The notes under the pieces were generated by a model. The model was not told the DNA's origin, searched no databases, and saw only the letters and a program-made list of their open reading frames with translations. A DNA stretch of 64,000 bases, from assembly GCA_021202555.1 (NCBI GenBank), contig JAJQCT010000038.1:18383-82382 (forward strand), written 5' to 3'. Positions within the stretch are counted from its first letter, which is position 1. Each line of letters begins with the position of its first letter. The position numbers and the translations under genes were made by a program. This document shows, piece by piece, positions 26,148-32,165 of the stretch. This DNA is from Clostridiales bacterium (GTDB taxonomy: Bacteria > Bacillota > Clostridia > Oscillospirales > CAG-272).

Positions 26148-29087
26148 ATGTCAAAAAGCATCAAATCATCGGCTGAGCTTTCCGCACTGCCCGCATATGA
26201 GCTTGTGCATGAGGAATATCTCGACGATATCAAGAGCTGCGGACTTGTATTCCGCCACAAAAAGAGCGGCGCGCGCGTCTGCGTCATCTCAAACGACGAT
26301 GACAACAAGGTGTTCTGCGCCGGATTCCGCACGACGCCGACGGACAGCACGGGCGTACCTCACATAACGGAGCATTCCGTTTTGAACGGATCGAAGAATT
26401 TTCCGTCGCGCGACCCGTTCATGTCGCTTGTAAAGGGTTCGCTCAACACGTTTTTGAACGCGATGACGTACCCCGACAAGACGATTTATCCCGTCGCGAG
26501 CTGCAACGACAAGGATTTCAAGAATCTCATGCACGTTTATATCGACGCCGTGTTCCATCCGCTGACATACTCCCGCCCCGAGATTATGCAGCAGGAGGGC
26601 TGGCACTATGAGCTTGAGTCGCCGGACGACGAGCTTAAGATAAACGGCGTTGTATACAGCGAGATGAAGGGCGCGCTTTCGTCCGCCGACTCGCTTATGT
26701 ATGAGGGAATACAGCACGCGCTTTATCCCGACAACACATACGGCGTAAATTCGGGCGGCGACCCCGACTTCATTCCCGACCTTACATATGAAAATTTCCT
26801 TGATTTCCACAGACGCTACTATCATCCCGTCAACTCGTATATTTATCTTTACGGCGACGTTGATATTGAGGAGCGTCTTACATGGATGGATGAGAATTAT
26901 CTTTCGGAGTTCGATATAATAGAGCTTGATTCTCATATCGAGCCGCAGGGTGAGTGGGACGGAATACGCGAGGAGTACGGAAAGTATTCTGTCGGAGCTG
27001 ACGACAAAACGGAAGGAAAGACTTATTTCGGCTATGCTACGCTTGCCGGCGAGGCAAACGTATATAATACGTGCGCATGGAGAGCTCTCGGCTCCGCGCT
27101 TCTCGATACGGGTGCGCCGCTTCTTCAGGCTTTGCAGGATGCGGGAATCGGCAATCAGGTTTACGGAGGATATGAGGGCGGAATACTCCAGCCTATGTTC
27201 ACAGTAATCGCAAAGGAGGCTAAGGCTGAGAACAAGGACAAATTCTTCGAGATTATCGACAAGGTTCTTCGCGAGCAGGTCAAAAACGGCATTAACAAGA
27301 ATGCGCTTCTCTCGGCAATCAACTCGGATGAATTCAGTTGGCGTGAGGCTGATTTCGGAGGCGCTCCAAAGGGACTTCTTTACATAATTACCTCATTTGA
27401 AAGCTGGCTTTACGATGATTCGAAGCCGTTCGATTTCCTGAAGCGCAATGAGATATATGAGGATCTGCGAAAGAAAATCGACGAGGGCTATTTTGAGGGG
27501 CTTATCGAGCAGTATCTTCTCACGCCGAAGCACGAGCTTCACTATGTGCTTGAGCCCGAACGCGGACTTCTTGACCGCAAAAATGAGGCGCTGCGCGAAA
27601 AGCTGGCTGCATATAAGGCATCGCTTTCAAAGGAAGAGGTTGAGGCTATAGTCGCATCGACCAAGCATCTGCGCGAATATCAGTCGGCACCCCCGACAGA
27701 GGAGGAAATAAACTGCATTCCTTCGATTACGCGCGAGGACATCGACAAAAAATCAAAAGCGTATACGAATGAGGAAAAAACGCTCGCGGGCATTCCCGCC
27801 GTATATCACGACGTGAACACAAACGGCATTACATACTGTGAGCTTATGTTCCGCACGGAGAGTATACCTACAGAGCTTATACCGTTTGTAGGGCTTTTGA
27901 GAAATGTGCTCGGCTCGGTCGATACGTCGAAGCATTCATATTTCGAGCTTTCAAACGATATAGGAATCAACACGGGCGGAATTTCATATTCATGCGGCGC
28001 TATTCACCTCTTCGGTCATCACGACGAGTTTGTGCCTTATACAAATGTAAGCTTCAGTGCGCTTTCAAGCAAGGTTTCATACGCAATGGAGCTTGTCGGT
28101 GAGGTTCTCTCCTCGTCCAAAATTCACGACAAAAAGCGCCTTTACGACATTATCACAGAGCATCTTTCGGGCACGCTCACGAGATTTGGTTCAAGCGGCA
28201 ACCGCTTTGCGCTTGAGCGCGCGAAATCATATATCATGCGCACATCTCTCTTTGAGGAAAAGGAAACGGGAATTGACGCATATATGACGCTGAAAGCTCT
28301 CATGGAGGACTACGACAAAAACTACGAGTACATTGCCGACAGCCTTGAAAAGGCGCTTCAGTATATGTACAGACCCGAAAATCTCATAGTTTCATATGCA
28401 TCCGACGCCGAAGGCGAGGCAGAGCTTGAAAAATCGCTCCCGCAGCTTGTCGCATCGCTCCATACGTGCGAAAAAGCATCGGGCGAGATGACGCTTGAGC
28501 CCACGGTCAGGAATGAAGGACTCATGATGCCGATTCAGGTTCAGTATGTTGCGCGCGCAGGTGATTTTGAAAAGAAGGGCTTTAAGTATTCTGGTGCTCT
28601 CGACGTTTTGAGATCGTCACTCAACATCGATTATCTCTATCAGGAGATTCGCGTTAAGGGCGGCGCATACGGTCAGGGATGCTCGTTCAATCAAAACGAC
28701 GGAATCCTCGGCTTCAGTTCATATCGTGACCCTCAGCTCAAAAATACGGATGAGGTTTACAAGAGAACGCCGGAGTTTATCCGTTCGATTTCCCTCTCAA
28801 ATGAGGAGCTTACAAAGCTCATAATCGGCACAATATCCGATGTTGACCAGCCGCGCACGCCCCGCACACAGAAGAGCATATCGTTCTCGGCATATCTTCG
28901 CGGCATGACAACAGAGGATTTGCAGAAAACGAGGGACGAAATTCTCAATGTAACGACATTAGAGCTTGTGGATGCGGCGGAGCTTGTCGAAAAGACGCTT
29001 GAGGACAGCGTTCTCTGCGTTATCGGAAACGACACGAAGCTTCGTGAAAACAAGGATATGTTCGGCTCGCTCGTATCGCTTTCGTAA
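26148..29087 (+). CDS. M16-family insulinase-like zinc metallopeptidase (PreP/CYM1-like, ~980 aa)
   Basis: Inverted zinc motif HxxEH (GVPHITEHSVLNGS) followed by YPDKTIYPVAS. The length and four-domain size are typical of the M16C subfamily. Confidence 0.85.
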   Translation: MSKSIKSSAELSALPAYELVHEEYLDDIKSCGLVFRHKKSGARVCVISNDDDNKVFCAGFRTTPTDSTGVPHITEHSVLNGSKNFPSRDPFMSLVKGSLNTFLNAMTYPDKTIYPVASCNDKDFKNLMHVYIDAVFHPLTYSRPEIMQQEGWHYELESPDDELKINGVVYSEMKGALSSADSLMYEGIQHALYPDNTYGVNSGGDPDFIPDLTYENFLDFHRRYYHPVNSYIYLYGDVDIEERLTWMDENYLSEFDIIELDSHIEPQGEWDGIREEYGKYSVGADDKTEGKTYFGYATLAGEANVYNTCAWRALGSALLDTGAPLLQALQDAGIGNQVYGGYEGGILQPMFTVIAKEAKAENKDKFFEIIDKVLREQVKNGINKNALLSAINSDEFSWREADFGGAPKGLLYIITSFESWLYDDSKPFDFLKRNEIYEDLRKKIDEGYFEGLIEQYLLTPKHELHYVLEPERGLLDRKNEALREKLAAYKASLSKEEVEAIVASTKHLREYQSAPPTEEEINCIPSITREDIDKKSKAYTNEEKTLAGIPAVYHDVNTNGITYCELMFRTESIPTELIPFVGLLRNVLGSVDTSKHSYFELSNDIGINTGGISYSCGAIHLFGHHDEFVPYTNVSFSALSSKVSYAMELVGEVLSSSKIHDKKRLYDIITEHLSGTLTRFGSSGNRFALERAKSYIMRTSLFEEKETGIDAYMTLKALMEDYDKNYEYIADSLEKALQYMYRPENLIVSYASDAEGEAELEKSLPQLVASLHTCEKASGEMTLEPTVRNEGLMMPIQVQYVARAGDFEKKGFKYSGALDVLRSSLNIDYLYQEIRVKGGAYGQGCSFNQNDGILGFSSYRDPQLKNTDEVYKRTPEFIRSISLSNEELTKLIIGTISDVDQPRTPRTQKSISFSAYLRGMTTEDLQKTRDEILNVTTLELVDAAELVEKTLEDSVLCVIGNDTKLRENKDMFGSLVSLS

Positions 29088-29215: not shown

Positions 29216-29244
29216 TTGACTTTACATGAATTTTATAATATAAT
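29216..29244 (+). promoter_or_regulatory. sigma-A type promoter of the VTC/DUF4956 operon
   Basis: TTGACT (29216-29221), 17-nt spacer, TATAAT (29239-29244). Confidence 0.55.
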
Positions 29245-29295
29245 TATCATCGTGAAATTCCGCAGGGCATTGTGGCATGAAAGCGAGGGTGTCAA

Positions 29296-30039
29296 GTGGC
29301 GTTCAAGGAAGTATTTAAGCGCGTTGAAAAGAAGTATATGCTCACCTCCGAGCAGTACGAAAGCTTTTTGCCTGCGCTCAACGAGCATATGCAGGCGGAT
29401 GAATACGGCGACAGCCTGATTATGAACATTTATTACGATTCGCCGAATTATTCCTTAATACGCCGCTCGATTGACAAGCCCGTATACAAGGAAAAAATCA
29501 GACTGCGCTGCTACGGGGTACCGAAGGACGATACAGTCACCTTTGTGGAGCTGAAAAAGAAGTATAAGGGCGTTGTTTTCAAGCGCAGAATCAGCATGAA
29601 ATATGCGGATGCGCTGAAATTTCTTGCGGGAGAAAAGCCGCCGAAGGATTCGCAGATTGCGCGGGAAATCAAGTGGTCGCTCGATTATTACGCAAATCTT
29701 AAGCCTGCCGTCGTGCTTTCATACAGGCGCGTCGCGTATTTCGGGCGCGAGGATCCGGACTTCAGAATGACCTTCGACAGGGAAATTTTATGGCGCGATA
29801 CGGACGTTGATCTGTCGCTCGGACCATACGGAGAGGCTCTTTTGCCCGAGGGAACGAGATTGATGGAGGTTAAATTTGCGGATGCGGCTCCGCTCTGGCT
29901 TGTGGATGAGATGGGAAGGCTCAATATGTACCCGACCTCCTTCAGCAAGTACGGAACCGCCTACAAATCGATTTTTATGTCGGCGCACGGCACCGACGAA
30001 AAAAATAAAATTTCCATAGGAGAAAAAGCAGATGTTTGA
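29296..30039 (+). CDS. VTC-domain (polyphosphate polymerase-like, triphosphate tunnel) protein
   Basis: GTG start. Basic/acidic tunnel-strand strings VEKKYML, KEKIRLRCYG, FVELKKKYKGVVFKRRI and RLMEVKF match the VTC/CYTH-like pattern. Confidence 0.75.
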   Translation: MAFKEVFKRVEKKYMLTSEQYESFLPALNEHMQADEYGDSLIMNIYYDSPNYSLIRRSIDKPVYKEKIRLRCYGVPKDDTVTFVELKKKYKGVVFKRRISMKYADALKFLAGEKPPKDSQIAREIKWSLDYYANLKPAVVLSYRRVAYFGREDPDFRMTFDREILWRDTDVDLSLGPYGEALLPEGTRLMEVKFADAAPLWLVDEMGRLNMYPTSFSKYGTAYKSIFMSAHGTDEKNKISIGEKADV

Positions 30040-30718
30040 AGAAACATTCAAATCGCTCATTGAGCAGAGCGAGATTACGATAGGCGATTTTGCCGTCTGT
30101 TCTCTCGTGTCAATCGGAATCGGAATCATAATTTCCGTTATCATGCTTTTCATATCGAAGAACAAGTCGAAGAGCATGATACTTACAACGGCGCTTTTGC
30201 CTTTTGTCGTTCAGGTCATTATTATGATGGTGAACGGGAACATAGGCATAGGGCTTGCCGTCGCGGGAACATTCGGGCTTATACGATTCCGTTCATATCC
30301 CGGAAGCGCGGACGACCTTATTGTGATTTTCATTTCCATGGCTGTCGGTCTTATTAACGGCGTCGGCTACATATGGGTTGCCATTATTTTCGCTGTCGTC
30401 GCGCTCGTAATTTATATTATTTACAGTCTTCTCGGCGTTGGCGGCGATCCCGTTTATTCAAAGGAGCTGCACGTGACGATTCCCGAGAATCTCAACTACG
30501 CGCATGAGTTTGACGATATATTCGGAAAATACGCGAAGCGCTATAATCTTTACCGCGTAAAGACGACAAACTTTGGCAGTATGTACACGCTTTATTATAA
30601 TCTCGATCTCATCGACGACGCGAAGGAAAAGGACATGATTGACGAGATTCGCTGCCGCAACGGCAACCTCGATATTATCTGCGGGCTTGCTTCAACTGAT
30701 CCGAAGGAGCTTCTCTGA
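30032..30718 (+). CDS. DUF4956-family membrane protein
   Basis: Overlaps the VTC gene by 8 nt. Several TM helices, the characteristic GTFGLIRFRS block and a soluble C-terminal domain. Confidence 0.7.
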   Translation: MFEETFKSLIEQSEITIGDFAVCSLVSIGIGIIISVIMLFISKNKSKSMILTTALLPFVVQVIIMMVNGNIGIGLAVAGTFGLIRFRSYPGSADDLIVIFISMAVGLINGVGYIWVAIIFAVVALVIYIIYSLLGVGGDPVYSKELHVTIPENLNYAHEFDDIFGKYAKRYNLYRVKTTNFGSMYTLYYNLDLIDDAKEKDMIDEIRCRNGNLDIICGLASTDPKELL

Positions 30719-30723
30719 CACGA

Positions 30724-31470
30724 ATGAACCGAACAGCACGAAATATCATTGTCGCACTTCTTATTGGAGCGTTCCTTGTTGCCGCGGCGTATGTCGTATT
30801 CATAATTTACGTATTCATAACGCCGGTATCGGACACGCTGAAAAACGAGAGCTATTCGTTTGATGCAGATGATGTATTTACTGTGAATATCGACGCGCCC
30901 GTCGGGTATGTGACGATTTCCGGTGCCGGTGAGGGCGACGAGATTTCTGTCGTGGTATTCGAAGACGGCGACGAAATTGAGTATACGGCGGAGCTTTCCG
31001 AGGAAGGTGTGCTTACGATAGCGCAGTCTCCCCTCACATGGTATAATGAAATCAGGTATAGCGGCAGCACGCTTTACGGAATTACGGTGACGCTGCCTAT
31101 ATCCGTCGAATGTAATGTTATCGTTATGGGCGGCACGGGCGACGTGACGCTGACAAGCCTCTCGCTTGGCGGACTGTCTGTTGATGTCACATCCGGCGCG
31201 GTTTTGCTCGATGACGTAACCCCGACGGTGGGATGTCAGATAAGTGTGTCAACGACAAGCGGGGCAATTTCATGCTCGTTTTCGGACGGCGTATCTCCGA
31301 ATGACTACACGTTTGACGTGGAGACGCAGTATGGGAGCGCCGTATTGCCGCAAAAGCTGACGTACAGTGTCGATTCCTCAACGACGGAGGACGGGGTCAC
31401 TGCCGATTACACGCTGAGGAGCAAAAACGGCGGCATTGAGGTGACATTTGCCGCATCGGAGGGAGAATGA
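30724..31470 (+). CDS. membrane-anchored DUF4097-like beta-repeat protein
   Basis: N-terminal TM helix, then repeated short strands such as GDVTLTSLSLGGLSVDVTSGAVLLDDV and VSTTSGAISCSF, as in DUF4097 'putative adhesin' domains. Confidence 0.55.
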   Translation: MNRTARNIIVALLIGAFLVAAAYVVFIIYVFITPVSDTLKNESYSFDADDVFTVNIDAPVGYVTISGAGEGDEISVVVFEDGDEIEYTAELSEEGVLTIAQSPLTWYNEIRYSGSTLYGITVTLPISVECNVIVMGGTGDVTLTSLSLGGLSVDVTSGAVLLDDVTPTVGCQISVSTTSGAISCSFSDGVSPNDYTFDVETQYGSAVLPQKLTYSVDSSTTEDGVTADYTLRSKNGGIEVTFAASEGE

Positions 31471-32015
31471 GAGAGAACAGGATTCAAATATTGCCGTATG
31501 TTGCCTGCGTTTTGATTTTTATGCTGTGCGCCTCGCTTTTGCCGACCGCAGAGGTAGATGCGGTTAATGCCGAAAATGTTGTTGTCGGTATCACGACGAC
31601 AACGCAGCTCGAAACGCCGACGGGAGTTCACTGGGACGAGAGCGAAAAGTTTCTCGCGAGATGGGACGCCGTTGAGGGGGCGGATTCGTATACTGTTGTG
31701 CTTTACGATGACGGCAGCATACAGGGTTACGTCGAGACGACAGAAACAAGCTATAGCTGGAAGGCGGGAATTACAGATAACTTCGGCTCGGGAACGTATA
31801 CCTTTACTGTAATCGCGACGTCGGAGGATGAGTCGTACACGTCAAGCGAAGAATCGGAAATGTCGGACGAGTTCAAGTATTGGCAAATGCCCGAAATCAG
31901 CTCGACCGCATGGAAGGTGATTATAATTGTCGTTGTTGTCGGTGTCTGCATTCTGATTGCCGCATGGCCTGACAAGAACATAAAGAAAAGAGAGAAGATT
32001 ATACATAAGAAATAA
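31467..32015 (+). CDS. secreted Fn3-like protein with C-terminal TM anchor
   Basis: ATGA overlap with the upstream gene. Signal peptide, Fn3-like WDAVEGADSYTVVLY block, C-terminal hydrophobic helix and a Lys-rich tail. Confidence 0.5.
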   Translation: MRENRIQILPYVACVLIFMLCASLLPTAEVDAVNAENVVVGITTTTQLETPTGVHWDESEKFLARWDAVEGADSYTVVLYDDGSIQGYVETTETSYSWKAGITDNFGSGTYTFTVIATSEDESYTSSEESEMSDEFKYWQMPEISSTAWKVIIIVVVVGVCILIAAWPDKNIKKREKIIHKK

Positions 32016-32043
32016 AAATACAGCAAACTATAGAATACACACA

Positions 32044-32072
32044 AAAAATCCGACCGGCGGTCGGATTTTTTT
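32044..32072 (+). terminator. rho-independent terminator of the VTC operon
   Basis: ATCCGACC ggc GGTCGGAT stem followed by TTTTTTT. Confidence 0.85.
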
Positions 32073-32100: not shown

Positions 32101-32165
32101 TTTGACCTTGACTTTCTTTGACTTTAGGAGTATAATATCAATAGTCAAAGAAAGTCAAAGTCAAA
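32101..32165 (+). promoter_or_regulatory. ctsR operon promoter with CtsR operators on both sides of the -10
   Basis: TTGACT (32108-32113), 17 nt, TATAAT (32131-32136). Downstream is AGTCAAAGAAAGTCAAAGTCAAA (32143-32165). Upstream, on the opposite strand, the same heptads read TTTGACCTTGACTTTCTTTGACTTT (32101-32125). The published CtsR box is (A/G)GTCAAA-NAN-(A/G)GTCAAA. Confidence 0.85.

What the first reader, a model, noticed from the sequence alone, without database searches (positions are those of the whole stretch)
29216..32072. Four translationally coupled genes: VTC polyphosphate-polymerase-like domain, DUF4956 membrane protein, DUF4097-like protein and Fn3-like membrane protein
A consensus promoter (29216-29244) and a strong terminator (32044-32072) bracket four genes. 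The genes are joined by an 8-nt overlap, a 5-nt gap and an ATGA overlap. Gene 1 carries the alternating basic/acidic strand motifs of the VTC/triphosphate-tunnel catalytic domain (VEKKY, KIRLR, VELKKK, VFKRR, MEVKF). In eukaryotes, VTC couples polyphosphate synthesis to membrane translocation through a transmembrane module. Here the soluble catalytic domain is followed by the polytopic DUF4956 protein (GLIRFR block), which could supply that membrane module as a split system. Two further envelope-exposed proteins are co-translated. To my knowledge the bacterial VTC/DUF4956 pair has no experimentally defined function.
Basis: partly seen in the sequence, partly recalled or inferred. Interest (0 to 1): 0.6.

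Follow-up and report, generated by a model that had tools for sequence, protein, structure and literature searches.

The report
VTC-DUF4956 operon with toastrack partner
A gut Clostridia genome carries a tightly packed four-gene operon whose first two genes (a yeast-like polyphosphate-polymerase enzyme and a small membrane protein) form a widespread, inseparable and still untested bacterial pair. Here the pair belongs to a branch that normally partners with an exported beta-helix protein instead of the CotH kinase, and in this genus that partner is a membrane-anchored toastrack protein.

Summary
Four + strand ORFs (29296-32015) are joined by an 8-nt overlap, a 5-nt gap and an ATGA overlap, between an 11/12 sigma-70-like promoter and a hairpin terminator.

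- **Gene families.** Gene 1 is a VTC domain (Pfam E 1.7e-40), gene 2 is DUF4956 and gene 3 is a signal-anchored toastrack (DUF4097) protein. Gene 4 matches no family, so "Fn3-like" is unverified.
- **Catalytic residues.** Six Vtc4 triphosphate-binding residues align by profile and are all but invariant in 170 bacterial homologues. Three more are inferred.
- **Co-conservation.** VTC and DUF4956 occur in the same 45 of 301 sampled genomes. They are co-oriented in 158 of 158 loci (median spacing -8 nt) and their trees give the same deep split. The four genes are not co-conserved: gene 3 stays within this genus, and gene 4 has only two homologues in 5.8 billion proteins.
- **New here.** The phylum has two paralogous lineages of the pair. 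One is CotH-linked. The other, which holds this window, typically reads RR-HK / VTC-DUF4956 / Cthe_2159 beta-helix lipoprotein, and the toastrack clade is nested inside it.
- **Limits.** DUF4956 shows no likeness to the yeast VTC channel. It looks MgtC-like, with five helices and an ACT-like domain. Polyphosphate export remains a minority hypothesis.

This scan has already recorded the VTC-DUF4956-CotH triad many times on other DNA.

The parts
29216..29244 (+). Sigma-70-like promoter: TTGACT, 17-nt spacer, TATAAT
   Evidence: 11 of 12 matches. This is a consensus match only (14 such sites in the region against 5.3 expected in shuffles).
29296..30039 (+). g1: cytoplasmic stand-alone VTC-domain (triphosphate tunnel) protein, 247 aa, GTG start
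   Evidence: Pfam VTC E 1.7e-40 over the whole model. The profile hits Vtc4 at E 8e-17 and the tunnel residues align. R9 E11 K13 K67 R69 R71 E85 K87 K96 R145 R157 D161 E191 K193 S217 K218 are invariant or nearly so in 170 homologues. There is no TM segment. It is the only copy in the genome.
30032..30718 (+). g2: DUF4956 membrane protein, 228 aa, start overlapping the g1 stop by 8 nt
   Evidence: Pfam DUF4956 E 9.3e-16. The AlphaFold2 model (pLDDT 76) has five helices at 17-134 and a C-terminal beta-alpha-beta-beta-alpha-beta domain at 144-219. Only weak ACT/PII-like fold hits were found. 7 of 32 homologues also hit Pfam MgtC. G79, R85, R87 and G106 are invariant in 159 homologues.
30724..31470 (+). 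g3: N-terminally anchored toastrack (DUF4097) protein, 248 aa, 5 nt after the g2 stop
   Evidence: Pfam DUF4097 at residues 138-240, 27.7 bits against a cut-off of 22.9. The NCBIfam LiaG match is far below its cut-off (32.8 against 285). Homologues occur only in the same genus. All 15 start with a basic N-terminus (net +2 or +3; MKK or MKR in 13), then about 22 or more hydrophobic residues, then an acidic or neutral flank. This predicts N-in/C-out topology.
31467..32015 (+). g4: lineage-specific small type-I membrane protein, 182 aa (signal peptide, beta-rich ectodomain, C-terminal TM helix, basic tail), sharing ATGA with g3
   Evidence: It has two homologues in 5.8 billion proteins (97% and 55% identity). 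The 55% homologue sits in the same four-gene order with an 8-nt overlap, a 6-nt gap and a 4-nt overlap. It matches no Pfam family. The AlphaFold2 model has pLDDT 44.
32043..32071 (.). Palindromic intrinsic-terminator-like hairpin (AAAAAATCCGACCG / CGGTCGGATTTTTT) separating the operon from the ctsR promoter
   Evidence: The arms are 14 nt long and 100% complementary, with an A-run and a T-run on either side, so it could terminate in both directions.

Best explanation
The operon is built on an obligate two-protein module.

**Core (g1 and g2).** g1 is a cytoplasmic Vtc4-type triphosphate-tunnel enzyme. It keeps the full set of residues that bind and polymerise phosphate in yeast Vtc4. It is co-translated with g2, a DUF4956 protein made of a five-helix MgtC-like membrane domain and a cytoplasmic ACT-like domain. 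An invariant Arg-x-Arg motif lies at the predicted cytoplasmic end of helix 3.

**Most likely mechanism.** g2 tethers g1 to the membrane, and perhaps gates it. g1 makes a phosphoanhydride polymer (polyphosphate) from nucleoside triphosphate at the membrane. The activity or the product is coupled to a protein on the outer face of the membrane.

**Outer partner.** In the lineage that holds this window the partner is normally a Cthe_2159-type beta-helix lipoprotein, and the cassette usually sits beside its own two-component system. In this genus the beta-helix gene has been replaced by g3, a signal-anchored toastrack beta-helix protein. In this species group a small type-I membrane protein (g4) has been added.

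**Shown:**
- gene structure and family membership
- conservation of the tunnel residues
- strict pairing and co-divergence of g1 and g2
- the pattern of partners across lineages

**Inferred:**
- enzyme activity
- physical contact between g1 and g2
- topology of g3
- any passage of product across the membrane, which I put at about 0.15
For: **Family and catalytic residues**
- Pfam VTC E 1.7e-40.
- The profile hits Vtc4 at E 8e-17, with K13=K200, R69=R264, R71=R266, K87=K281, Y143=Y359 and R145=R361.
- These residues are required for polyP synthesis in yeast, and K458 is what separates active Vtc4 from inactive Vtc2/3.
- The bacterial E191-x-K193 and S217-K218 are conserved in 168-169 of 170 homologues and have the right spacing to be E426/K428 and S457/K458.

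**Pairing of VTC and DUF4956**
- In 301 genomes sampled from the phylum, VTC occurs in 45. DUF4956 occurs in the same 45, with equal copy numbers.
- In 169 loci, 158 have DUF4956 in the fetched stretch. All 158 are on the same strand, and the median spacing is -8 nt.
- The DUF4956 tree reproduces the deep A/B split of the VTC tree, with SH-aLRT 100.
- R85 and R87 of DUF4956 are invariant in 159 sequences.

**Partners**
- The next gene is CotH in 25 of 51 phylum-sample loci.
- It is Cthe_2159 in 41 of 78 clade-B loci, and RR-HK lies beside the pair in 36 of those 78.
- It is toastrack only in this genus.
- Every CotH and Cthe_2159 neighbour whose sequence was read (10 of them) starts with a signal- or lipoprotein-like N-terminus.
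- g3 has an N-in/C-out charge pattern in 15 of 15 homologues.

**Genome context**
- The genome already has a ppk1-ppx pair on contig 22 for ordinary cytoplasmic polyphosphate.
Against: - No bacterial VTC-domain protein has been assayed. None was found in the paper library.
- In S. intermedius, deleting the VTC gene gave no reported change, while deleting DUF4956 or CotH did.
- Every bacterial homologue has Glu at position 11, where Vtc4 has Thr198. This is the position of the second Glu of the ExExK motif of hydrolytic and cyclase tunnel enzymes (my own knowledge of the CYTH family). A hydrolase or another reaction is therefore not excluded.
- The C-terminal third of g1 could not be aligned to Vtc4 by sequence. 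E426, S457 and K458 are therefore inferred.
- DUF4956 has no likeness to the yeast channel. Its nearest relatives, MgtC and ACT domains, are regulatory and not transporters.
- g3 is missing in two genus loci (L044, L055) and g4 is almost an orphan, so neither can be essential to the core.
- Ravi et al. argue that toastrack domains are generally intracellular, which conflicts with my topology call for g3.
- An earlier check in this scan priced "VTC makes the chain and DUF4956 passes it" at 5 in 100.
Confidence: 0.4

Rival explanations
1. **Signalling or regulated-synthesis model.** DUF4956 is a membrane-bound regulator, MgtC-like with an ACT ligand-binding domain. It switches the tunnel enzyme on or off inside the cell in response to an envelope or metabolite cue. 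The exported partner (toastrack, beta-helix or CotH) is the sensor or an independent output. Nothing crosses the membrane, and the product (polyphosphate or a small phosphoanhydride signal) acts in the cytoplasm.
For: - The model shows five helices and an ACT/PII-like domain, and 7 of 32 homologues hit Pfam MgtC.
- A dedicated OmpR-type two-component system lies beside the pair in 36 of 78 clade-B loci and in about 10 clade-A loci.
- Toastrack domains are typical of Lia/Psp envelope-stress signalling.
- In the genus the operon sits beside ctsR-mcsAB-clpC.
Against: - CotH is an enzyme, not a plausible sensor.
- The partner proteins differ in fold class between lineages, while the core stays constant.
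- The genome already has PPK1 and PPX for cytoplasmic polyphosphate.
- The ctsR neighbourhood holds only within the genus, and a terminator separates it from the operon.
Confidence: 0.3
2. **Different chemistry.** The tunnel enzyme is not a polymerase. It is a triphosphatase, polyphosphatase or nucleotide cyclase of the wider triphosphate-tunnel superfamily, anchored at the membrane by DUF4956.
For: - Glu11 is invariant where Vtc4 has Thr198.
- Hydrolysis and cyclisation are the commoner activities in this superfamily (my own knowledge of the CYTH and CyaB families).
- A weak profile hit to E. coli inorganic triphosphatase (5a60) was seen at E 0.22.
Against: - The match is to Pfam VTC over the whole model, with no CYTH hit.
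- Vtc4 is the best solved relative, about 16 orders of magnitude ahead of the triphosphatase.
- The Ser-Lys pair that I equate with Vtc4 S457-K458, whose Lys marks the active subunit, is conserved in 168-169 of 170 sequences.
Confidence: 0.2
3. **Passenger model for genes 3 and 4.** Only g1 and g2 form a functional unit. The toastrack gene and the small membrane protein gene landed downstream in this genus and use the operon's promoter, with no functional link to the core.
For: - g3 is restricted to one genus and is absent from L044 and L055.
- g4 occurs in this species group only.
- No similarity was found between g3 and the Cthe_2159 family it replaces (hhalign probability 4.7%).
- An internal promoter-like site lies at 30573-30601.
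Against: - The 5-nt gap and the ATGA overlap are kept in a relative whose g4 is only 55% identical (as a 6-nt gap and a 4-nt overlap).
- g3 occupies the same slot, immediately after DUF4956, that an exported partner takes in other lineages.
- 15 of the 17 genus loci that include the downstream flank (the window counted) keep it.
Confidence: 0.3

Closest known systems
cotH / 'polyphosphate polymerase' (VTC) / DUF4956 (/ DUF4832) accessory genes of Gram-positive pel loci (Whitfield et al., bioRxiv 10.1101/768473; S. intermedius SIR_1594-1592, PMC12345266)
   Same: It has the same two core families, adjacent and co-oriented. DUF4956 is described there too as a multi-helix MgtC-like membrane domain with an ACT domain. 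No biochemical function is known.
   Different: This operon has no CotH gene and no pel genes beside it; the flanks are an M16 peptidase gene and ctsR. The pair belongs to a different deep paralogous clade from the CotH-linked pairs. The partner here is a toastrack protein.
Eukaryotic VTC complex (yeast Vtc4/Vtc3/Vtc1; PDB 3G3Q, 7YTJ, 8I6V)
   Same: The catalytic tunnel domain belongs to the same Pfam family, and the triphosphate-binding residues are conserved. The enzyme is tied to a membrane protein.
   Different: There is no SPX domain and no fused TM domain. No DUF202/Vtc1-type subunit occurs in the operon or the genome. DUF4956 is unrelated in sequence and fold to the VTC channel. Glu11 replaces Thr198.
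MgtC family (PF02308): membrane domain with a C-terminal ACT-like domain
   Same: The architecture is the same, with five predicted helices and a beta-alpha-beta-beta-alpha-beta domain. 7 of 32 DUF4956 homologues cross-hit the MgtC model (best E 2.5e-5).
   Different: g2 itself does not hit MgtC at E <= 0.1. MgtC proteins are not encoded next to VTC enzymes and are known as regulators of other membrane proteins (as cited in PMC12345266).
LiaG / toastrack proteins of Lia-Psp envelope-stress systems (Ravi et al., 10.1101/2020.09.24.301986)
   Same: g3 has a single N-terminal TM helix followed by a DUF4097 toastrack beta-helix.
   Different: It falls far below the LiaG equivalog cut-off (32.8 against 285 bits). 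No liaF, liaI, pspA or pspC gene lies beside it. It is predicted to face outwards, whereas that paper argues toastrack is intracellular.
Cthe_2159 beta-helix family (PF14262; binds cellulose and polygalacturonate, as cited in 10.1101/401869)
   Same: It occupies the same operon slot in the sister lineages (41 of 78 clade-B loci). It is an exported right-handed beta-helix.
   Different: It has no detectable sequence relationship to g3. In this genome the two Cthe_2159 genes lie elsewhere (contig 25: 3139-5064 and contig 36: 89937-90929).

Membership tests
VTC domain / Vtc4-type triphosphate tunnel (PF09359) | Match to the family model above the curated cut-off, over the full length | tested here: met
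   139.5 bits against a cut-off of 23, covering model positions 2-235 of 235.
VTC domain / Vtc4-type triphosphate tunnel (PF09359) | Triphosphate-binding residues K200, R264, R266, K281, Y359 and R361 of Vtc4 | tested here: met
   The profile alignment to Vtc4 pairs them with K13, R69, R71, K87, Y143 and R145. These are conserved in 166-170 of 170 homologues.
VTC domain / Vtc4-type triphosphate tunnel (PF09359) | Metal ligand E426 and the S457-K458 pair (K458 marks the active subunit) | tested here: inconclusive
   E191-x-K193 and S217-K218 are conserved in 168-169 of 170 homologues and are suitably spaced. However, the C-terminal part did not align to Vtc4 by sequence, and no residue-level structural alignment was available.
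VTC domain / Vtc4-type triphosphate tunnel (PF09359) | Polyphosphate polymerase activity | not testable with these tools
   This needs an enzyme assay.
Eukaryotic VTC complex | SPX domain and C-terminal TM domain on the catalytic subunit; Vtc1-type (DUF202) channel subunits | tested here: not met
   g1 is 247 aa with the VTC domain only. g2 has no DUF202 hit. No DUF202 was found in the genome, which is 97.8% complete. Foldseek of the g2 model gave no hit at E <= 0.001 and no VTC entry among the 50 best matches listed.
VTC-DUF4956-CotH triad of pel loci | VTC and DUF4956 genes adjacent and co-oriented | tested here: met
   The same holds in 158 of 158 loci where both genes are present.
VTC-DUF4956-CotH triad of pel loci | CotH gene in the same operon, next to pel genes | tested here: not met
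   The operon has no CotH gene. The genome's CotH genes lie on contigs 36, 30 and 10. The flanks are an M16 peptidase gene and ctsR. The pair falls in the non-CotH clade B.
DUF4956 (PF16316) | Match above the curated cut-off | tested here: met
   58.4 bits against a cut-off of 30.6. All 32 aligned homologues match.
MgtC family (PF02308) | Match to the MgtC model; multi-helix membrane domain with a C-terminal ACT-like domain | tested here: inconclusive
   g2 has no MgtC hit at E <= 0.1. 7 of 32 homologues do, with best E 2.5e-5. The architecture fits. Fold hits to ACT/PII domains are weak, with E 0.02-0.09.
Toastrack / DUF4097 (PF13349) | Match above the curated cut-off | tested here: met
   27.7 bits against a cut-off of 22.9, at residues 138-240. 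The ectodomain alone gives 28.8 bits.
LiaG (NCBIfam NF049997) | Equivalog cut-off; lia operon context | tested here: not met
   32.8 bits against a cut-off of 285. No lia or psp genes are adjacent.
Fibronectin type III domain (gene 4) | Match to an fn3-type model or a confident beta-sandwich model | tested here: not met
   No Pfam family matched at E <= 10 on the ectodomain. The AlphaFold2 model has mean pLDDT 44, which is too poor for a fold search.

The most novel reading that the evidence does not exclude
The VTC-DUF4956 pair is a bacterial polyphosphate synthase-translocase. The tunnel enzyme feeds the growing chain to an oligomer of DUF4956, whose invariant Arg-x-Arg motif receives it. 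The chain emerges at the cell surface and is captured or used by the lineage-specific exported partner. That partner is a polyanion-binding beta-helix (Cthe_2159 type, or toastrack in this genus) in one paralogous lineage and a CotH kinase in the other. This would be a route for making extracellular or wall-bound polyphosphate in Gram-positive gut bacteria.
Probability: 0.12. Interest if true: 0.8.

Novelty: new variant of a known kind. Interest (0 to 1): 0.4.

Why it matters
Bacterial polyphosphate is thought to come from PPK1 and PPK2. A second, yeast-type enzyme that is always wired to a membrane protein, and nearly always to an exported partner, would point to polyphosphate or phosphoryl chemistry at the cell surface. 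No source of energy-rich phosphate is known there.

This window adds three points to what is already known about the VTC-DUF4956-CotH triad:
- The phylum holds two ancient, co-diverging paralogous pairs.
- The non-CotH pair has its own canonical cassette (two-component system, VTC, DUF4956, Cthe_2159 beta-helix lipoprotein). It is common in gut and rumen Clostridia, including cultured strains such as Roseburia inulinivorans DSM 16841.
- The outer partner is exchangeable, with a toastrack protein taking its place here.

Any model therefore has to work without CotH. The named cultured carriers also offer organisms in which the module might be tested genetically.

Tried and rejected
- **g3 as a diverged Cthe_2159 protein.** Profile-profile comparison of 15 g3 homologues with 9 Cthe_2159 neighbours gave probability 4.7% over 5 columns. 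I rejected the homology. Any likeness would be in fold class only.
- **Aligning the C-terminal third of g1 to Vtc4 by sequence.** A 25-sequence profile found no Vtc4 chain at E <= 10.
- **Fold of g4.** The three-sequence alignment gave pLDDT 44, so I did not run a fold search.
- **Fold search of g2 against the PDB.** Nothing reached E <= 0.001 and no transporter or VTC channel appeared among the 50 best matches. Only weak ACT/PII/S6-like hits to the C-terminal domain were found.
- **Paralogues in the own genome.** None of the four proteins has one.
- **Named equivalogs for the associated two-component system.** All NCBIfam hits were below their cut-offs. It is not PhoPR.
- **Rfam scan of the window.** No family was found, so there is no riboswitch or leader upstream of g1.
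- **Wider sampling.** The genome-contig scan with the VTC profile returned only close clade-B relatives. The HlyD/TolC association that earlier scan notes report for double-membraned bacteria was therefore not tested here.
- **Literature.** Searches for any assayed bacterial VTC-domain protein found none.

Full report
**1. What is in the sequence**

The region holds four + strand ORFs:
- g1: 29296-30039 (GTG start, 247 aa)
- g2: 30032-30718 (228 aa)
- g3: 30724-31470 (248 aa)
- g4: 31467-32015 (182 aa)

g1 and g2 overlap by 8 nt (ATGTTTGA). g2 and g3 are 5 nt apart. g3 and g4 share ATGA. A TTGACT-17-TATAAT site lies at 29216-29244 (11 of 12 matches). A perfect 14-nt-arm hairpin flanked by A and T runs lies at 32043-32071.

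Upstream is an M16-family peptidase gene (26148-29087). Downstream, after the hairpin, is the ctsR-mcsA-mcsB-clpC operon. No Rfam family is found anywhere in the window.

**2. What the four proteins are**

*g1.* It matches Pfam VTC over the whole model (E 1.7e-40), has no TM segment, and is the only copy in a 1.97-Mb, 97.8%-complete genome. A profile of 30 homologues finds yeast Vtc4 at E 8e-17. That alignment gives these pairs:

| g1 | Vtc4 |
|---|---|
| R9 | R196 |
| K13 | K200 |
| R69 | R264 |
| R71 | R266 |
| K87 | K281 |
| K96 | K294 |
| Y143 | Y359 |
| R145 | R361 |
| R157 | R373 |

The cryo-EM paper lists K200, R264, R266, K281, R361, K458, S457 and Y359 as the triphosphate ligands and E426 as the Mn2+ ligand. 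All are needed for polyP in vivo, and K458 is the one residue that differs in the inactive Vtc2 and Vtc3.

The last third of g1 could not be aligned to Vtc4 by sequence. Even so, E191-x-K193 and S217-K218 are conserved in 168-169 of 170 bacterial homologues, like the rest of the tunnel set. I infer that they are E426/K428 and S457/K458.

One consistent difference stands out. Glu11 is invariant where Vtc4 has Thr198. This is the position of the second Glu of the ExExK motif of hydrolytic tunnel enzymes (my own knowledge), so a non-polymerase chemistry is not excluded.

*g2.* It is DUF4956 (E 9.3e-16). The AlphaFold2 model (32 sequences, pLDDT 76) has five helices between residues 17 and 134, then a beta-alpha-beta-beta-alpha-beta domain at 144-219. 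Foldseek against the PDB gives nothing at E <= 0.001. It finds only weak ACT, PII and S6-like hits for the C-terminal domain, and no transporter or VTC channel among the 50 best matches. Seven of 32 homologues also hit the Pfam MgtC model, in line with the description of S. intermedius SIR_1592. G79, R85, R87 and G106 are invariant in 159 sequences. By the positive-inside rule, the R-x-R motif lies at the cytoplasmic end of helix 3 (inference).

*g3.* It has a DUF4097 toastrack domain in its C-terminal half, above the Pfam cut-off. It is not a LiaG equivalog. All 15 homologues begin with a basic N-terminus (net +2 or +3; MKK or MKR in 13), then about 22 or more hydrophobic residues, then an acidic or neutral flank. 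This predicts that the domain faces outwards. Ravi et al. argue that toastrack is generally intracellular, so the topology needs an experiment.

*g4.* It has a signal-peptide-like start, a beta-rich ectodomain, a C-terminal TM helix and a basic tail. It matches no Pfam family even at E <= 10, and its model is unusable (pLDDT 44). "Fn3-like" is unverified.

**3. Which genes travel together**

*Close relatives.* In 60 relatives the VTC gene is found in 17 of 18 genomes of the genus and 32 of 36 of the family. I fetched 12 kb around 40 of these copies and searched them with the window's proteins.
- DUF4956 follows VTC in 37 of 40 loci. One exception is a contig end.
- g3 homologues occur only in the same genus, in 14 of the 16 relatives' loci that include the downstream flank. 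They are absent in L044 and L055.
- g4 has no homologue in any of them.

*g4 in the large database.* Across 5.8 billion proteins, g4 has two homologues (97% and 55% identity). The 55% one lies on a contig with the same four genes, joined by an 8-nt overlap, a 6-nt gap and a 4-nt overlap. The four-gene form therefore exists, but only in a narrow species group.

*Even sample of 301 genomes of the phylum.* VTC is present in 45. DUF4956 is present in the same 45, with matching copy numbers, plus one sub-threshold hit elsewhere.

*All 169 loci with a VTC gene* (some genomes appear twice, through different tools). 158 have DUF4956 in the fetched stretch, always on the same strand, and VTC comes first in 148. 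The estimated median spacing is -8 nt. Most of the 11 loci without DUF4956 are contig ends.

**4. Two lineages and an exchangeable partner**

Pfam showed that the gene after DUF4956 in other genera is either a CotH kinase or a Cthe_2159-type beta-helix lipoprotein. I built local profiles from those examples and scored all loci with them.

| Sample | Partner found |
|---|---|
| 51 phylum-sample loci | CotH 25, Cthe_2159 6, toastrack 0 |
| 78 loci from named genomes (all close to g1) | Cthe_2159 in 41; OmpR-type RR and HK beside VTC in 36; both in 22; toastrack in 2 (same genus as the window); CotH in 1 |

A maximum-likelihood tree of 92 VTC proteins has a deep split, with SH-aLRT 100 on both sides.
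- **Clade A** (41 rows): 25 CotH-linked, none linked to Cthe_2159 or toastrack.
- **Clade B** (51 rows): 15 Cthe_2159-linked, 15 toastrack-linked, 3 CotH-linked.

The toastrack rows form one supported group (18 rows, SH-aLRT 98) nested among Cthe_2159-linked rows. The DUF4956 tree gives exactly the same A/B bipartition (one change, SH-aLRT 100). The two proteins have therefore diverged together without swapping. Genomes with two or three pairs, where both copies were placed on the tree, have copies in both clades.

In the window's own genome the other pieces are present but unlinked:
- two Cthe_2159 genes, on contigs 25 and 36
- three CotH loci
- the best candidate orthologue of the associated two-component system, on contig 28

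g3 shows no detectable sequence relationship to Cthe_2159. The swap is therefore a replacement, not divergence.

**5. How it most likely works**

*What is shown.* The tunnel enzyme is under strong constraint on every residue that Vtc4 uses to hold triphosphate. It is never separated from DUF4956. The two are usually translationally coupled. They are nearly always accompanied by an exported protein, and often by a dedicated two-component system.

*Genome background.* The genome has a ppk1-ppx pair for ordinary polyphosphate. It has no PPK2, no DUF202 and no canonical MgtC.

*My best reading (confidence 0.4).* It is a membrane-tethered Vtc4-type polymerase whose activity or product is coupled to the outer face of the membrane through DUF4956. 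The beta-helix partner (toastrack here) acts outside.

*Sub-claims.*

| Claim | My probability |
|---|---|
| g1 is catalytically active on triphosphate substrates | about 0.7 |
| g1 makes polyphosphate | about 0.4 |
| The product crosses the membrane through DUF4956 | about 0.15 |

*Evidence against export.*
- DUF4956 is MgtC/ACT-like.
- It has no likeness to the yeast channel.
- The S. intermedius VTC deletion had no reported phenotype.
- No bacterial VTC-domain protein has ever been assayed.

*Rivals.* These are a cytoplasmic signalling or regulated-synthesis model (0.3), a different chemistry for the enzyme (0.2), and, independently of those, g3 and g4 as mere passengers (0.3).

**6. Comparison with what is known, and novelty**

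The VTC-DUF4956 pair with CotH has been described as accessory genes of Gram-positive pel loci. It has been partly tested by deletion in S. intermedius. It is also visible in C. perfringens NELoc-2.

This scan has recorded the triad many times on other DNA: 749 findings hold the search words. A later check there priced the synthesis-and-translocation reading at 5 in 100. None of those notes holds toastrack or Cthe_2159 together with VTC and DUF4956.

The core is therefore known but uncharacterised. Three things are new here: the split into two co-diverging paralogous lineages, the canonical RR-HK / VTC-DUF4956 / Cthe_2159 cassette of the non-CotH lineage, and its toastrack-bearing variant in this genus. 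I class it as a new variant of a known kind, with moderate interest (0.4).

The association with HlyD/TolC in double-membraned bacteria, reported in earlier notes, would bear on the export model. I did not test it.

Noticed in passing
window 32101-32165: A 23-nt inverted repeat (TTTGACCTTGACTTTCTTTGACT / AGTCAAAGAAAGTCAAAGTCAAA) flanks the -10 region of a TTGACT-17-TATAAT promoter (32108-32136) just upstream of ctsR. The arms look like tandem CtsR operator heptads (GTCAAA repeats), so this is probably ctsR autoregulation.
   Followed up: partly
window 30573-30601: A second 11/12 promoter-like site (TTGGCA-17-TATAAT) lies inside the 3' end of g2, about 120 nt upstream of g3. It could give g3-g4 their own transcript.
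   Followed up: no
L152 (Roseburia inulinivorans DSM 16841), L182 (Ruminococcaceae bacterium P7), L204 (Lachnoclostridium sp. MSJ-17); VTC match at 7001-7681 in L152: L152 and L182 carry an OmpR-type RR-HK pair beside VTC-DUF4956, and L152 and L204 carry a Cthe_2159 gene after it; only L152 has the whole cassette. They appear to be cultured, named isolates, so they are candidates for genetic tests. The cassette does not appear in the papers or earlier scan notes I searched.
   Followed up: partly
own genome: contig 25: 3139-5064 (-), contig 36: 89937-90929 (+), contig 28: 76104-78218 (+), contig 22: 66689-68488 (-): The genome keeps two Cthe_2159-family genes, a likely orthologue of the cassette's RR-HK pair, and a ppk1-ppx pair. 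All are unlinked to the VTC operon. Three CotH loci (contigs 36, 30, 10) exist without any clade-A VTC-DUF4956 pair.
   Followed up: partly
L057 (G050:C23) and L076 (G055:C23): These are two exceptions to the pairing. In G050 the VTC gene is followed by a 589-aa cytoplasmic protein, and the genome's DUF4956 gene is on another contig (C16). In G055 the VTC ORF is truncated (181 aa) and runs into a histidine-kinase-like fragment, so it is probably decaying.
   Followed up: no
L039-L055 (same-genus loci): Across the genus the operon keeps its position just upstream of ctsR-mcsA-mcsB-clpC, or of clpC alone. Sometimes one to three opposite-strand genes, including multi-TM proteins, are inserted between them. 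This is conserved synteny with no evident functional link.
   Followed up: no
L072 7699-8787, L074 5577-6257, L059 4685-5902: In some clade-B loci that lack a Cthe_2159 gene, the neighbouring gene encodes another exported protein. Examples are a BspA-type leucine-rich-repeat lipoprotein, a membrane-anchored cyclophilin, and a PpiC/PrsA-like lipoprotein.
   Followed up: partly
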